Source: the human T2T-CHM13v2.0 reference genome, Homo sapiens
NCBI RefSeq assembly: GCF_009914755.1
Contig: NC_060930.1
Reading direction: 5' to 3' (one strand)
DNA: 64,000 nucleotides
Both the position numbers and the translations under genes were made by a program. The notes under the pieces were generated by a model that saw only the letters and a list, made by a program, of their open reading frames with translations, did no database searches and was not told the DNA's origin. Below, in pieces: positions 41,218 to 47,528 of the stretch (the first letter of the stretch is position 1; each line of letters begins with the position of its first letter).

Positions 41218-41549
41218 AGCCGGGCGCAGTGGCTCACACCTGTAATCCCAACACTTTGGGAGGCCGAGGCAGGCAGATTACGAGGTCAGGAGATCGAGAC
41301 CATCCTGGCTAACACAGTGAAACCCCATCTCTACTAAAAATACAAAAAATTAGCTGGGCGTGGTGATGGGCGCCTGTAGTCCCAGCTACTCAGGAGGCTG
41401 AAGCAGGAGAATGGCGTGAACCCAAGGAGGTGGAGCTGGCAGTGAGCCGAGATTGCACCACTGCACTCCAGCCTGGGCAACAGAGCGAGATTCCGTTAAA
41501 AAAAAAAAAAGAAAGAAAGAAAGAAAGAAAAAGAAAAAGAAAAAAAAAA
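41218..41549 (+). mobile_element. AluY SINE with A/(GAAA)n tail
   Basis: Y-diagnostic gagatcgagaccatcctggctaacac and agaatggcgtgaaccc. A-rich TSD-like flanks. Confidence 0.95.
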
Positions 41550-42388
41550 GGCCCTTTATCCAAAAAATTTTGTCCATGTTTCAGTAGTATAATAGTGGCT
41601 TTTACAACTAAGAATCTACATCTACAAGGGAAGGTTTAATCCATTTAGATACCCCATTCAAAGGTCAGAGAAATCTGAAATAAACTTTGGAAAGGTCTCC
41701 AAATGGAATATTTACTGTGATTGCCAAAAACATTTACACTAAGTTAAGTCTGTTTCTTAAAATGGGAAGCTGGAAAATGTTAATACATAGACAACCTCAT
41801 TCCCCTATCATTTCAAATTGAGGAGTTGCTGCTTCATTCAAATTCTTACAACACACACATGGCAATACCACCATGGTATCAATGAGCAAAGAAGGACTCA
41901 GATGCCAACCAACTTACCTTCTCTAATATCTACTGTGAGACTTGGCTCACAGTTTAAGAAGGCTTTTTTAGAACATTCGTCAAGCTGCGGGAAGGCTGGA
42001 GGTAAAATGGAGTTTGTATTGTTTTGAGAAAGGCAAATTATATTTATGGCAGAATAGAGGAAAAGGAAACTTTTAGGAGTTTAAGACATCTGCTTCCTAG
42101 CCTAAGGGGCATTTCCTACAATCCATATTAACACCATTTGTTTTGCTAGATAGACCTGTGAGTCACAGAGGACTCAATTTGATTCAACATATTCTCATCT
42201 ACAACCCTGTCAGATGTATCTCTAAAGTTAGTTGATAATAGAATGGGATTTTCTTATCCTGGTACACATGCCAAAAATAGAGCCAACTAAACATTTCCAA
42301 AAACTTCAAAACACCAACCACAAATGAACAACAGGATTACTTGGAGATAATGCCATATCTCCCCATGTTTTAGGAACAGAAAAAGGCA

Positions 42389-42394
42389 GCTTAC
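42389..42394 (-). other. RCAN2: 5' splice donor of the RCAN2 AUG exon
   Basis: AAG|GTAAGC, near-consensus. RCAN similarity ends exactly here. Confidence 0.93.
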
Positions 42395-42619
42395 CTTGCT
42401 CTCTTCTCCTTCAAACACTGACTGGTGAACATTGCACGCAAACAACGAGTTGGGGAGGTCATTGAAGTCAGTGATTGCTTGAAAGGCTTCTTCTGCAAAA
42501 CAACGAGTGACAGCCCAGTCCCTGTCTATGCAGCACAGTAAGAAAAGTCCTCCATCTTCAGGGACGTGTCCCTGCTGCCCTGGGCTCCTCATTCCGATGA
42601 AGTATGATTCTCCCCTCAT
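42395..42619 (-). CDS. RCAN2: RCAN2 first coding exon of the long isoform (codons 1-75, phase-0 donor); full exon 42395-42621
   Basis: Translation MRGESYFIGMRSPGQQGHVPEDGGLFLLCCIDRDWAVTRCFAEEAFQAITDFNDLPNSLFACNVHQSVFEGEESK matches the recalled N-terminus of RCAN2/ZAKI-4 beta, including the RCAN 'DLPxSLFACxVHxxVF' start of the RRM-like domain. The acceptor is ctttgtatccccAG|GA-ATG and the donor is AAG|GTAAGC. 225 coding nt. Confidence 0.96.
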
Positions 42620-42621
42620 TC

Positions 42622-42643
42622 CTGGGGATACAAAGATGAGCAT
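42622..42643 (-). other. RCAN2: 3' splice site / polypyrimidine tract of the RCAN2 AUG exon
   Basis: Minus strand atgctcatctttgtatccccAG, with AG at 42623-42622 and a yTnAy-like CTCAT candidate branch point. Confidence 0.9.
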
Positions 42644-42899
42644 GTGTTACTGCAGAACAAATTCCTTAAAACTCAGTTTTCGGGTCACAGTTTTGTATTG
42701 TCAGGGGCAGAACAGTGGAGTACGATTAGGAGCAGAGGCAGGGGATATTGGAAGGGAGAAGATCTGCAAGTTCACATGGTTCCCTTGATCCCTGAACCAG
42801 AATTTCCCATACAGCTCTGCTCTGGGGCAAGAACCGAGTCAGTACTATGGTTTTTTAAAACAAACAGACAAACAAATAGGTATAGGAAATGGAGATCAC

Positions 42900-43170
42900 C
42901 ACCACTACTACCAATGTCTATCGTGTATTGAGTTCCAGGCACTATTCTAAATGATTTATATAAATTTAGAACATCAATTACATACATTAACTACCTTATT
43001 TAATCTCCACAATAGTCTATAAGGTTGGTACCAATATTTTCCCCAATTTACAGATGGGAAAACAGGAAGAAAGCAATTAAGTAACTTTTACAAGACCACT
43101 GACAAAATGGCAGGGCTAGGATTCAAACTCAGGGAAACTGGCACCAGAGCTCACTCTCCTATGCCACAGG
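42900..43170 (-). mobile_element. MIR
   Basis: ccaggcactattctaaat…ttttccccaatttacagatgggaaaac…ggattcaaactcagg. Confidence 0.75.
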
Positions 43171-44840: not shown

Positions 44841-45479
44841 AGGAAACTCTTTTGATAATGAAGTCATAATCATTCAGCAGCATACAAATAGATGCTGTGT
44901 CAATTTGAATTTTATTTTTAATCTCATCCCTCTTATTTAAAATATTTTAAGTGAATCAAAACATTATAAAACACTCTTAGATGTGTTGTAAGAATGTTTC
45001 AATTATTATTTTTCCAAAAAAAATCTAAAATCCATTGCCGAACAAATTAATTAAATAGATCAAATTTTAAGCTTAACTCAGGACTCATTTTAATCTACTC
45101 AAATAGCCTTAATTTCTATCCTAAGCTGTAACAATATTATCTTCATGAGATTTTATTTTAAGCTCATTACTTTCAGTAAAGATTTAAGGGTGAATGCATT
45201 TTTGGCAAACAACCTACTTTACTTACATGGAGAAATACTTTAGAAGTCAGAGCTTTGAACAAAGAAATTCTAATTTCTCTTTCTAGTTTCATTACTAACT
45301 CACCCCATAATTTGGAGAAGCCAAGTGATCATTCTGGAACTCAGTTTATCCTTGTAAAACAACAACAAAACAACATTGAACTGCCTCCTTCTGCAGAGTA
45401 AGGGGAGGCAGGGGAATGAAACAGGAGCGGAAGACGTGATCAAAATCAGTATTAACCACTACATAAAAGAATATGTAAT

Positions 45480-45545
45480 ATGCAGTTTTGCAATACTGTA
45501 ATATACAGTATTGCAATTTTTACTGCATGAACTATGCAGTAAAAA
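45480..45545. repeat. Two adjacent perfect inverted repeats (13-bp and 12-bp stems)
   Basis: ttgcaatactgta-ata-tacagtattgcaa followed by tttttactgcat-gaact-atgcagtaaaaa. Confidence 0.95.
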
Positions 45546-45683
45546 CACATCGTGATAATTTCAGAGCAAGGCAATTATGCTTCAGTATTGCCCAAATAAA
45601 CAGAAGGAAATTCTGAAGATTAAGAGAACTTCCCAATAAAGAAGTATAAAGGTCCCACAGCTCAAGTTAACTGGTTTGTCTTT

Positions 45684-46004
45684 GTTTCCTCTGTTGTTGT
45701 TTTTTTTTTCCACTTTTTCAGAGAGGGTCTTGCTCTGTTGCCCAAGCTGGAGTGCAGTAGCACAATCATAACTCACTGCAACCTCCAACTCCTGGGTTCA
45801 AAGTGATCCTTCCACCTCAGCCTCGTGAGTGGCTGGGACTACAGGCATGCACCACCATATCTGGCTAATTTCTTTTTTATTTTTTGTAGAGATGAGATCT
45901 TGCTATGTTGCCCAAACTGGTCTCCAACTCCTAGCCTCAAATAGTCCTCCCATTTTGGTTTCACAAAGTGCTGGGATTACAGATGTCAGACACTGTGCCC
46001 AGCC
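45684..46004 (-). mobile_element. AluJ SINE with 12-bp TSD
   Basis: TSD tggtttgtcttt at 45672-83 and 46005-16. Confidence 0.93.
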
Positions 46005-46699
46005 TGGTTTGTCTTTTTTAATTAATATCAAACTGTTAGTCATTGTAAGAAACCTTTGAGGCAACCATTGTCTACCAAGATTGACATGTGTTGTCCTTAT
46101 TTCTAAATCTGAGGTTGGCCATCCAAAGGAGAAGAGCTTCCTTCAGCTAGGAGGCCATTTTCCGGGAGGGCTTCCCAACCTCACCCAGGCTGGGATGAAT
46201 GTGGTGTTCTTTCTCAGAGCTCCCTGAGCACCTGCACAGCCTTTTCTCATAAAATTGTCCTCCAATGCAGCTACTATTGTGATTACTACTTTACTAGTCT
46301 GTATCTCAATCCAGATTGGTATTTCTTGAAAGCAGAGGCTGGGTTGTCTTCATCCATGTATCTACAGGAAAATATAGAAAGCCCTCAAAATAATGTTTGG
46401 CTGAATTAATGAATTATATAAAAAAGAGTCACTTTTTGGAAATAACAGACCAGCAAGTGGGTTATAATGTCCAACTTAAAATGTATACACTAATGATATA
46501 CTATTTCAAATGTCTACACTAATAATGAAAACAATCCTCTCATTTAAATGTAAAGGTTTGATTTCTAAAATGTAATTTTACAAATGAAAGATAGCAAGAA
46601 TCACTCAAAGATAGCAAGACTCACAGGATTCCTCTAGCTAAAATTTAATAATCTGTGGAAAATAGCAAAAATAACATTAATGTTTTTTAATGAGTTAAC

Positions 46700-47010
46700 T
46701 GAAGAAAAACTGGAAAATTCAAAAAGCTATAAAGAAGAAAATAAAAGTAAACCATAATCCTACTATCCAGAGAAAACTCCTGCTAACATTTTGGTATATT
46801 TCATTGCAGTGTTTTTTTTACATGTAAAATTTTTAAACAAAATGGGGGTCCTGCTGTTTAGTATACCGCTCCTGTCCTGCAACACTGATATAATCAAGAG
46901 CAGTTCCCTGTGTGATTATATATTCTTCAAAACATTAATTTTAATAGCCACATTGTATCCCAGTGTATGAATCTGTCATAATTTAATCACTCTTCTGTTG
47001 TTTGACATTT
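46700..47010 (-). mobile_element. Old L1ME-like 3' fragment
   Basis: ataatcctactatccagagaaaactcctgctaacattttggtatatt pattern. Confidence 0.55.
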
Positions 47011-47220
47011 GGAAAGCATAAGTTTCCATCACCTTATGCATGTGGAAAAGAAAAACCACTATCCACTATTAAAATATAAATCTTCCCATGGGAGAATTTC
47101 AAAACTTCTTTAGATAAAGAAAAGAGACATCTTCATGAAATACTGGAAAGAGCCCTAAGGGAATACCTTCATGCCAGTCTCAAGCTGTAAATAGGGGGCC
47201 TTCTGGGCTGTGGCTTTCTT

Positions 47221-47528
47221 TTTTTTCTTTTTTTTTTTTTCTTTTGAGAGAGAGTTTCGCTCTTATTGCCCAGGTCAGAGTACAATGGCACGATCTTGAC
47301 TCATCGCAACTTCCGCCTCCCGGGTTCAAGAGATTCTCCAGCCTCAGCTTCCCGAGTAGCTGGGATTACAGGCATGTGCCACTACGCCCAGCTAATTTTG
47401 TATTTTTTAGTAGAGACGGAGTTTTTCCATGTTGGTCAGCCTGATCTCGAACTCCCGACCTCAGGTGATCCGCCTGCCTCAGCCTCCCAAATTGTTGAGA
47501 TTACAGGCGTGAGCCACCATGCCCAGCC
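47221..47528 (-). mobile_element. AluSp/Sq-type SINE with 14-bp TSD
   Basis: TSD gctgtggctttctt at 47207-20 and 47530-43. Confidence 0.95.

What the first reader, a model, noticed from the sequence alone, without database searches (positions are those of the whole stretch)
41218..47528. RCAN2 AUG exon has circRNA architecture, and the back-splice junction closes the ORF with a stop overlapping the start codon (predicted 76-aa circ-peptide)
Seen: the 227-nt exon (42395-42621) lies between long introns. An AluY on + sits ~850 nt to one side, and three Alus on - (44529, 45684, 47221) sit ~1.9-4.9 kb to the other, so inverted Alus bracket the exon. The exon begins GA-ATG-AGG and ends …AAG, so joining end to start gives AAG GAA TGA (Lys-Glu-stop), with TGA overlapping the ATG. 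One turn of the circle is exactly one closed ORF, MRGES…GEESKE*, with G at -3 of the AUG. Established: inverted Alus and long flanking introns promote back-splicing, and AUG-containing second exons are a common circRNA class. RCAN calcineurin-docking motifs (SP repeat, PxIxIT-like) are in later exons. Inference: a single-exon circRCAN2 could divert the start codon from linear mRNA and/or yield an N-terminal peptide that cannot inhibit calcineurin. I recall a circular RCAN2 transcript being reported in pig heart but cannot confirm its exon content.
Basis: partly seen in the sequence, partly recalled or inferred. Interest (0 to 1): 0.8.

Follow-up and report, generated by a model that had tools for sequence, protein, structure and literature searches.

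The report
RCAN2 start-codon exon, hypothetical circle
This is the ordinary start-codon exon of the human RCAN2 gene; it has features that favour circular RNA, but these are common or expected by chance, and nothing here shows that the circle or its peptide exists.

Summary

- **Exon:** it lies on the minus strand (42621 to 42395) and is 227 nt. It starts GA-ATG-A after a clean acceptor and ends AAG before GTAAGC.
- **Circle ORF:** joining end to start gives a 76-codon ORF. It stops at a TGA that overlaps the ATG.
- **Alus:** one plus-strand Alu lies 884 nt downstream. Three minus-strand Alus lie 1.9-4.6 kb upstream.

The exon is RCAN2 exon 3, the AUG exon of the beta-isoform transcripts. Its flanking introns are 21-35 kb and 210 kb. 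All 5 Alus in the upstream intron share one orientation, so they can only pair across the exon.

The stop at the junction is at chance level: 36% of random draws with this geometry give one. Codon 76 (GAA) is the same in linear mRNA, so the peptide has no unique residue. The Alu pair's total distance, about 2.8 kb, misses a published 2.3 kb cut-off.

The published pig circ-RCAN2 spans 4,673 bp, so it is a different circle. AUG circRNAs are a known class, generally without evidence of translation. Whether this circle exists is untested: no RNA data or circRNA database was reachable.

The parts
42395..42621 (-). RCAN2 exon 3 (exon 2 of NM_001251974.2), 227 nt; the AUG exon of the beta-isoform transcripts
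   Evidence: hub annotation; exon 3 is present in the RCAN2-1 and RCAN2-2 transcripts; single copy in the genome.
42617..42619 (-). Annotated ATG start codon (exon positions 3-5)
42616..42618 (-). TGA that would end the ORF only if the exon were back-spliced; it overlaps the ATG by two bases
   Evidence: Chance expectation 36%.
42622..42640 (-). 3' splice site: pyrimidine-rich tract and AG acceptor
   Evidence: read directly
42389..42394 (-). 5' splice site, GTAAGC
   Evidence: read directly
41219..41557 (+). Alu with an A-rich tail in the downstream intron; antisense in the pre-mRNA; 884 nt from the exon
44531..44846 (-). Nearest upstream-intron Alu, sense in the pre-mRNA. Its body, 44557-44832, is 1,935 nt from the exon. 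It lies inside the RefSeq enhancer 44116-45117.
   Evidence: Duplex with the downstream Alu: -430 kcal/mol against about -150 for shuffles.
45688..46003 (-). Second upstream-intron Alu
   Evidence: Duplex -364 kcal/mol.
47221..47528 (-). Third upstream-intron Alu, with target-site duplication
   Evidence: Duplex -394 kcal/mol.
21861..22156 (-). Nearest same-intron inverted partner (competitor) of the 41219 Alu, 19 kb away
   Evidence: Duplex -457 kcal/mol.

Best explanation
The region is RCAN2 exon 3. This is the internal, normally linearly spliced exon that carries the start codon of the beta isoform (transcripts E1/E2-3-5-6-7). It sits between a 21-35 kb intron and a 210 kb intron that carry primate Alu insertions.

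The exon has the sequence prerequisites of an 'AUG circRNA'. The stop at the would-be back-splice junction simply follows from a 2-nt leader, a phase-0 exon end and an A after the ATG. It is not a designed feature.

If a 227-nt circle is made, it is most likely a minor, non-coding by-product of splicing across very long introns, perhaps helped by Alu pairing. It would not be a template for a functional peptide.

Shown: the anatomy, the arithmetic, the Alu inventory and the chance level. Inferred: low abundance and the non-coding nature of any circle.
For: - Exon identity and splice sites.
- Intron lengths. No other exon of the chosen transcript lies in the window, so the upstream intron is at least 21.4 kb; the hub's gene start at 77613 makes it at most about 35 kb. 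Exon 5 was located at C6:46083850-46084023, so the downstream intron is 210,371 nt.
- Chance level of the stop: 36%. Further stops in the same frame lie at exon positions 31 and 94.
- Codon 76 is GAA in both the circle and the linear E3-E5 mRNA, so the peptide would equal beta isoform residues 1-76.
- No sign of a translation element. There are 6 DRACH motifs in 227 nt against about 4 expected (the expectation is my own arithmetic). The circular fold is unremarkable, z = -0.36, and the AUG is paired in the minimum-energy fold. Pfam finds no domain in the 75 aa.
- Stagsted et al. 2019 (PMC6487579; passages read). Distances from junction to stop in AUG circRNAs match a geometric (chance) distribution. 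The putative stops are not conserved. There is no Ribo-seq or peptide support.
- No paper in the searchable main texts describes a human RCAN2 exon-3 circle.
Against: The context is truly favourable for back-splicing.
- It is an AUG exon, second in its transcript, and both introns are far above the 6,500-nt mark that characterises AUG and conserved circRNAs.
- 0 of 5 Alus in the upstream intron are on the plus strand, so those Alus have no partner within their own intron.
- The downstream plus-strand Alu's nearest inverted partners are the ones across the exon. The predicted duplexes are -364 to -430 kcal/mol.
- No other inverted repeat of 18 nt or more lies between the Alus and the exon.
- RCAN2-1 and RCAN2-2 transcripts are abundant in brain, heart and muscle, tissues that I recall as rich in circRNAs.

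circBase, circAtlas, RNA-seq data and all supplementary tables were out of reach. A detectable circle may well be catalogued without my seeing it.
Confidence: 0.62

Rival explanations
1. A single-exon circRCAN2(E3) of 227 nt is made at appreciable levels in primate brain, heart or muscle. Its formation is driven by the very long flanking introns and helped by uncontested pairing between the 41219 Alu and the 44557, 45728 and 47234 Alus. It acts without being translated. One example is an 'mRNA trap': each back-splice removes the beta start codon from a transcript and so lowers RCAN2-beta output.
For: - Architecture.
- AUG circRNAs as a class are abundant, conserved and associated with long introns.
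- circAtlas holds several RCAN2 circles: sus-RCAN2_0004 and hsa-RCAN2_0001 are named in PMC12607399.
Against: - No junction evidence was seen. 'circRCAN2' gave 0 papers.
- Among the 8 'circ-RCAN2' papers, both primary studies are on pig. Of the other 6, the one I opened only cites the pig work; the remaining 5 I judged from titles and abstract starts.
- The total inverted-Alu distance, about 2,820 nt, is above the 2,300-nt cut-off that separates Alu-dependent circRNAs from host exons.
- 227 nt is short for a single-exon circle. I recall a median near 350 nt from Zhang et al. 2014; that paper was not seen here.
- The downstream intron holds 16 minus-strand Alus that can compete for its 23 plus-strand Alus.
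Confidence: 0.25
2. Exon 3 takes part only in multi-exon circles (for example exon 3 joined to exons 5-6), not in a single-exon circle. The ORF would then run on into the calcipressin domain, and the junction stop described here would never be formed.
For: - Most circRNAs hold 2-3 exons, as stated in the introduction of PMC6487579.
- The known pig circle is multi-exonic by its 4,673-bp span.
Against: - A circle of exons 3+5 needs the 210-kb intron to be removed inside the circle.
- The pig span of 4.7 kb cannot contain both exon 3 and exon 5 if pig distances resemble human ones. That is an inference; the pig genome was not available.
Confidence: 0.08
3. One reading: the circle is translated without a cap into a 76-aa N-terminal RCAN2-beta fragment, which has a function of its own and cannot inhibit calcineurin.
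For: - The ORF is closed and spans the junction, with G at -3.
- Overlapping start/stop arrangements exist in circles reported as translated: circ-SHPRH, circ-AKT3 and a 220-nt viral satellite circle.
- The docking motifs are in exons 6 and 7.
Against: - The closure is at chance level.
- There is no untranslated room for an entry element, because the 231-nt ORF plus stop exceeds the 227-nt circle.
- There is no structure signal and the AUG is paired.
- DRACH count is near expectation.
- There is no Pfam domain. The calcipressin model matches start at exon 5, so the fragment would hold at most the first edge of that fold.
- The class-wide evidence on translation is negative.
- The product has no unique residue, so it could not differ in sequence from a truncation or breakdown product of the beta isoform.
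Confidence: 0.03

Closest known systems
AUG circRNAs (Stagsted et al. 2019, PMC6487579; examples named there include circHIPK3, circSETD3, circVRK1 and circSLC8A1)
   Same: - An internal exon carrying the host gene's annotated start codon.
- Very long flanking introns.
- An ORF that crosses the junction and stops soon after it.
   Different: - For RCAN2 exon 3 no back-splice junction has been seen here or in the searched main texts.
[quoted passage not shown]
   Same: - The AUG overlaps a stop, so one turn is one ORF.
- The viral circle is about the same size (220 nt against 227 nt).
   Different: - Those circles have reported protein products. This one has none.
- Here the overlap is the expected by-product of a 2-nt leader (36%).
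- The product adds no new residues to the host protein's N-terminus.
Published circ-RCAN2 of pig heart (PMC7866528 and PMC12607399; circAtlas sus-RCAN2_0004, said to be conserved with human hsa-RCAN2_0001)
   Same: - Same host gene.
- RNase R-resistant, with a Sanger-confirmed junction in pig.
   Different: - Its junction spans 7:41003826-41008498, which is 4,673 bp, not 227 bp.
- In human, the only RCAN2 coding exons that lie a few kb apart are exons 5 and 6, about 2.2 kb. The pig circle therefore most likely comes from that cluster. This is an inference.
- Its exon numbers are in a figure, and its primers are in a supplement that could not be opened.
Alu-dependent circRNAs (the complementary-sequence model of Jeck 2013 and Zhang 2014, cited in PMC6487579; those papers were not read)
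   Same: - Inverted Alus in both flanking introns.
- Pairing across the exon is nearer than pairing within an intron.
   Different: - The total distance of about 2,820 nt exceeds the 2,300-nt working cut-off.

Membership tests
AUG circRNA | Contains the host gene's annotated start codon | tested here: met
   ATG at 42617-42619. The hub annotation gives coding 42395-42619.
AUG circRNA | Internal exon with a usable acceptor and donor | tested here: met
   ...tatccccag|GA and AAG|gtaagc. Exon 3 follows the alternative first exons 1 or 2.
AUG circRNA | Long flanking introns (over 6,500 nt in Stagsted et al.) | tested here: met
   Upstream 21.4 kb or more, up to about 35 kb (hub annotation). Downstream 210,371 nt.
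AUG circRNA | A back-splice junction observed in RNA | not testable with these tools
   No RNA-seq or circRNA database was available. Main-text literature searches found none for this exon.
Alu-dependent circRNA | Inverted Alu elements in the two flanking introns | tested here: met
   Plus-strand Alu at 41219-41510 against minus-strand Alus at 44557, 45728 and 47234. Arms 70-83% complementary. Duplex -364 to -430 kcal/mol.
Alu-dependent circRNA | Inverted pair within 2,300 nt total distance (working cut-off of Stagsted et al.) | tested here: not met
   884 + 1,935 = 2,819 nt, or 2,746 nt counting the tails.
Alu-dependent circRNA | Pairing across the exon not out-competed by pairing within an intron | tested here: met
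   Upstream intron: 0 plus and 5 minus Alus. The nearest same-intron partner of the 41219 Alu is 19 kb away, against 3.0 kb across the exon. The rest of the downstream intron holds 21 plus and 10 minus Alus.
Translated circRNA | ORF that spans the junction, with start and stop | tested here: met
   76 aa, with TGA at exon positions 4-6. It is at chance level.
Translated circRNA | An internal entry element (IRES-like structure or m6A sites) | tested here: inconclusive
   6 DRACH motifs against about 4 expected (own arithmetic). Circular fold z = -0.36. No sequence lies outside the ORF.
Translated circRNA | Ribosome footprints or peptides specific to the circle | not testable with these tools
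   No data. In addition, the product has no residue that is absent from the linear protein.
Published circ-RCAN2 (pig; circAtlas sus-RCAN2_0004 / hsa-RCAN2_0001) | Same back-splice span as this exon | tested here: not met
   Pig span 4,673 bp against 227 bp.

The most novel reading that the evidence does not exclude
RCAN2 exon 3 forms a real 227-nt AUG circle in primates. Its formation is favoured by a 210-kb intron and by upstream Alus that can pair only across the exon. The circle tunes beta-isoform output, either by removing the start codon from transcripts or by yielding the exact 76-residue N-terminus of the beta isoform as a separate micro-protein. The paralogue RCAN3 shows the same 'one turn, one ORF' closure, which would then hint that the arrangement is selected in this gene family.
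Probability: 0.04. Interest if true: 0.5.

Novelty: new member of a known kind. Interest (0 to 1): 0.2.

Why it matters
RCAN2 regulates calcineurin in brain, heart and muscle. A circle that takes away the beta start codon would be one more layer of isoform control, and a testable example of the 'mRNA trap' idea.

As it stands, the finding is a tidy hypothesis built on features that many ordinary exons share. The most useful results here are practical:
- The known pig circ-RCAN2 is a different molecule.
- The predicted peptide has no unique residue.
- A junction read must reach at least 4 nt past the join to be told apart from the linear exon 3-exon 5 junction.

Tried and rejected
- **Rfam over the whole window at gathering thresholds:** 0 matches, so no annotated RNA family.
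- **Pfam on the 75-aa exon product:** 0 families at E up to 1.
- **Other inverted repeats** of 18 nt or more between the Alus and the exon (41560-44520): 0 pairs.
- **Circular fold of the exon:** not more stable than shuffles.
- **Literature.**
  - 'circRCAN2': 0 papers.
  - 'circ-RCAN2': 8 papers. Both primary studies are on pig and I opened both, plus one citing paper. The other 5 were judged from titles and abstract starts only.
  - 'hsa-RCAN2': 1 paper.
  - RCAN2 + hsa_circ: 19 papers.
  - RCAN2 + circRNAs + host gene: 13 papers.
  - RCAN2 + circular RNA + brain: 22 papers.
  - From these lists I opened PMC7866528, PMC12607399, PMC11383601, PMC10288115, PMC9855933 and PMC12207800. In the last four, RCAN2 appears only in citations or as an mRNA target. 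The other papers I judged from titles and abstract starts to be ceRNA or review papers, and did not open them.
- **Exon-length norm for single-exon circles:** the last search gave nothing useful, so that point rests on recall.
  - Conservation of the GA-ATGA start and the 227-nt length across mammals, because only the human genome was at hand.
  - Alu subfamily assignment.
  - Molecular mass of the peptide.
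Full report
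**1. What is in the sequence.**
Read on the minus strand, the exon runs from 42621 to 42395 and is 227 nt. A pyrimidine-rich tract ending in ...tatccccag precedes it, and gtaagc follows it. The exon starts G-A-ATG-AGG. The ATG is at 42617-42619, and 75 codons (MRGES...GEESK) run exactly to the last base, so the exon ends in phase 0.

A circular ORF scan gives 76 codons from that ATG, ending at a TGA at exon positions 4-6 that overlaps the ATG. Because 227 mod 3 = 2, no endless ORF is possible. A second in-frame ATG at exon position 30 would give 67 aa and ends at the same stop.

**2. The Alus.**
I used the window's own Alu (41219-41510) as a blastn query, read the elements directly and ran a repeat search.
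- There is one plus-strand Alu at 41219-41510, with an A-rich tail to about 41557.
- There are three minus-strand Alus at 44557-44832, 45728-46003 and 47234-47517.
- The gene is on the minus strand. The first Alu therefore lies in the downstream intron and is antisense in the pre-mRNA, 884 nt from the donor. The other three lie in the upstream intron and are sense, 1,935, 3,106 and 4,612 nt from the acceptor.
- Predicted intermolecular duplexes are -430, -364 and -394 kcal/mol, against about -134 to -152 for shuffled partners.
- No other inverted repeat of 18 nt or more lies between the Alus and the exon.
- The 'AluY' label was not tested.

**3. What the exon is.**
The hub annotation places it in RCAN2 as the only exon of NM_001251974.2 in the window. 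Serrano-Candelas et al. 2014 (PMC3896409; passages read) describe seven exons.
- Exon 3 is present in RCAN2-1 (E1,3,5,6,7) and RCAN2-2 (E2,3,5,6,7).

The exon is single-copy in the assembly. A scan of the same genome with the calcipressin model found exons 5, 6 and 7 of RCAN2 on the same contig. I then fixed exon 5 at C6:46083850-46084023, which is 174 nt.

The intron downstream of exon 3 is therefore 210,371 nt. The upstream intron is at least 21.4 kb, because no other exon of that transcript lies in the window. It is at most about 35 kb, given the gene start at 77613.

The SP repeat (SPPSSPP) is in the exon-6 locus and the PxIxIT-like PSVVVH is in the exon-7 locus (the motif names are recalled).

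**4. Is the architecture special?**
I completed the Alu inventory of both flanking introns.

| Intron | Plus-strand Alus | Minus-strand Alus |
|---|---|---|
| Upstream (42622 to about 77613) | 0 | 5 |
| Downstream (210 kb) | 23 | 16 |

- The upstream Alus cannot pair within their own intron.
- The nearest downstream plus-strand Alu is the one at 41219. Its nearest inverted partners are the three across the exon, 3.0-5.7 kb away. The nearest same-intron partner, 21861-22156, is 19 kb away.
- This is favourable under the competition model of exon circularisation. That model is cited in PMC6487579; the primary papers were not read.

Against that stands Stagsted et al. 2019 (passages read).
- 45% of human circRNAs, but also 22% of ordinary host exons, have an inverted Alu pair within 2,300 nt total distance.
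- Here the total is about 2,820 nt, outside that cut-off.
- AUG circRNAs as a class show distal Alus and are insensitive to DHX9.
- What marks them out is long flanking introns (over 6,500 nt), and this exon has those in abundance.
- A heart-focused study reports the same for cardiac AUG circRNAs (PMC7407233; passages read). RCAN2 does not occur in the main text of either paper.

**5. Is the closed ORF special?**
No.
- With a 2-nt leader and a phase-0 end, the two codons after the join are NNA and TGN. With the exon's own base composition, a stop overlapping the ATG arises in 36% of draws.
- The frame entered after the join also has stops at exon positions 31 and 94.
- Stagsted et al. found that junction-to-stop distances in AUG circRNAs follow the chance distribution. 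They also found that the stops are not conserved and that Ribo-seq and peptide searches give no support for translation.
- Overlapping start/stop arrangements are already described for circ-SHPRH, circ-AKT3 and a 220-nt viral satellite circle (PMC11263353; passages read).

One new practical point: exon 5 begins GAA-AAA and exon 3 begins GA-ATG-A. Codon 76 is therefore GAA (Glu) in both the linear and the circular reading. The 76-aa product would be identical to residues 1-76 of the beta isoform. There is no circle-specific residue, epitope or tryptic peptide. A junction read needs at least 4 nt beyond the join to tell the circle from the linear mRNA.

Nothing suggests an entry element.
- There are 6 DRACH motifs against about 4 expected (own arithmetic).
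- The circular fold has z = -0.36 and the AUG is paired in the minimum-energy fold.
- The ORF plus stop (231 nt) is longer than the circle, so no sequence lies outside it.
- Pfam sees no domain in the 75 aa.

**6. Is the circle known?**
The results of the six main-text searches, and the papers I opened from them, are listed under 'tried and rejected'. None describes a human RCAN2 exon-3 circle.

- Both primary 'circ-RCAN2' studies are on pig. I opened them and one citing paper. The other five 'circ-RCAN2' papers were judged from the listing only.
- Mester-Tonczar et al. 2021 (PMC7866528; passages read) give the junction as 7:41003826-41008498, a span of 4,673 bp. They call it the first reported circular RCAN2 transcript.
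- The 2025 follow-up (PMC12607399; passages read) shows RNase R resistance. It equates the circle with circAtlas sus-RCAN2_0004, said to be conserved with human hsa-RCAN2_0001.
- A 4.7-kb span cannot be a 227-nt exon. In human, exon 3 has no coding neighbour within 210 kb, while exons 5 and 6 lie about 2.2 kb apart. The pig circle therefore most likely comes from that cluster. This is an inference.
- The exon numbers are in a figure that is not held.
- Of the other papers listed, the four I opened mention RCAN2 only in citations or as an mRNA target. The rest were judged from titles and abstract starts only.
- circBase, circAtlas and RNA-seq data could not be reached, so the existence of the circle stays open.

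**7. Verdict.**

My estimates are:
- about even odds that some back-splice reads for this exon exist in large catalogues;
- about one in four that the circle is appreciable;
- a few percent that it is translated into anything that matters.

These estimates are judgement, not computed.

Noticed in passing
L015 403-656 (G000:C1:24352702-24352955, plus strand): The paralogous AUG exon of RCAN3 is 254 nt. I inferred its boundaries from aacag| and |gtaggc. If circularised, it would also close its ORF (84 aa) with a stop (TAA) that overlaps its ATG by one base. The chance for that geometry is about 11%, and about 4% jointly with RCAN2. This is post hoc and compatible with coincidence.
   Followed up: partly
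window 42584-42621, minus strand: The motif GAATGAGG occurs twice in the exon, at positions 1-8 and 28-35. This gives two in-frame ATGs (Met1 and Met10), each followed by A and so each overlapped by a TGA in the other frame.
   Followed up: no
window 42622-64000 plus L013: All 5 Alus of the upstream RCAN2 intron are on the minus strand, sense to the gene. In the window as a whole, 9 of 11 Alu hits are on the minus strand. The far part of the downstream intron has the opposite bias: 21 plus and 10 minus.
   Followed up: partly
window 44531-44846: The nearest upstream Alu lies inside the RefSeq 'enhancer' 44116-45117. In place of an A-tail it carries a (CA)n/(GC)n microsatellite.
   Followed up: no
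window 47207-47534: This Alu keeps a clear target-site duplication, a 14-nt direct repeat on both sides.
   Followed up: no
window 42287-42643, minus strand: An ATG in the upstream intron (42641-42643) opens a 118-aa frame. It runs in phase through the whole exon and into the downstream intron. This would matter only for intron-retaining transcripts.
   Followed up: no
window-equivalent -11382 to -10121 (L031): A tight cluster of three Alus (minus, plus, plus) lies within 1.3 kb in the downstream intron. It is a likely site of within-intron double-stranded RNA.
   Followed up: no
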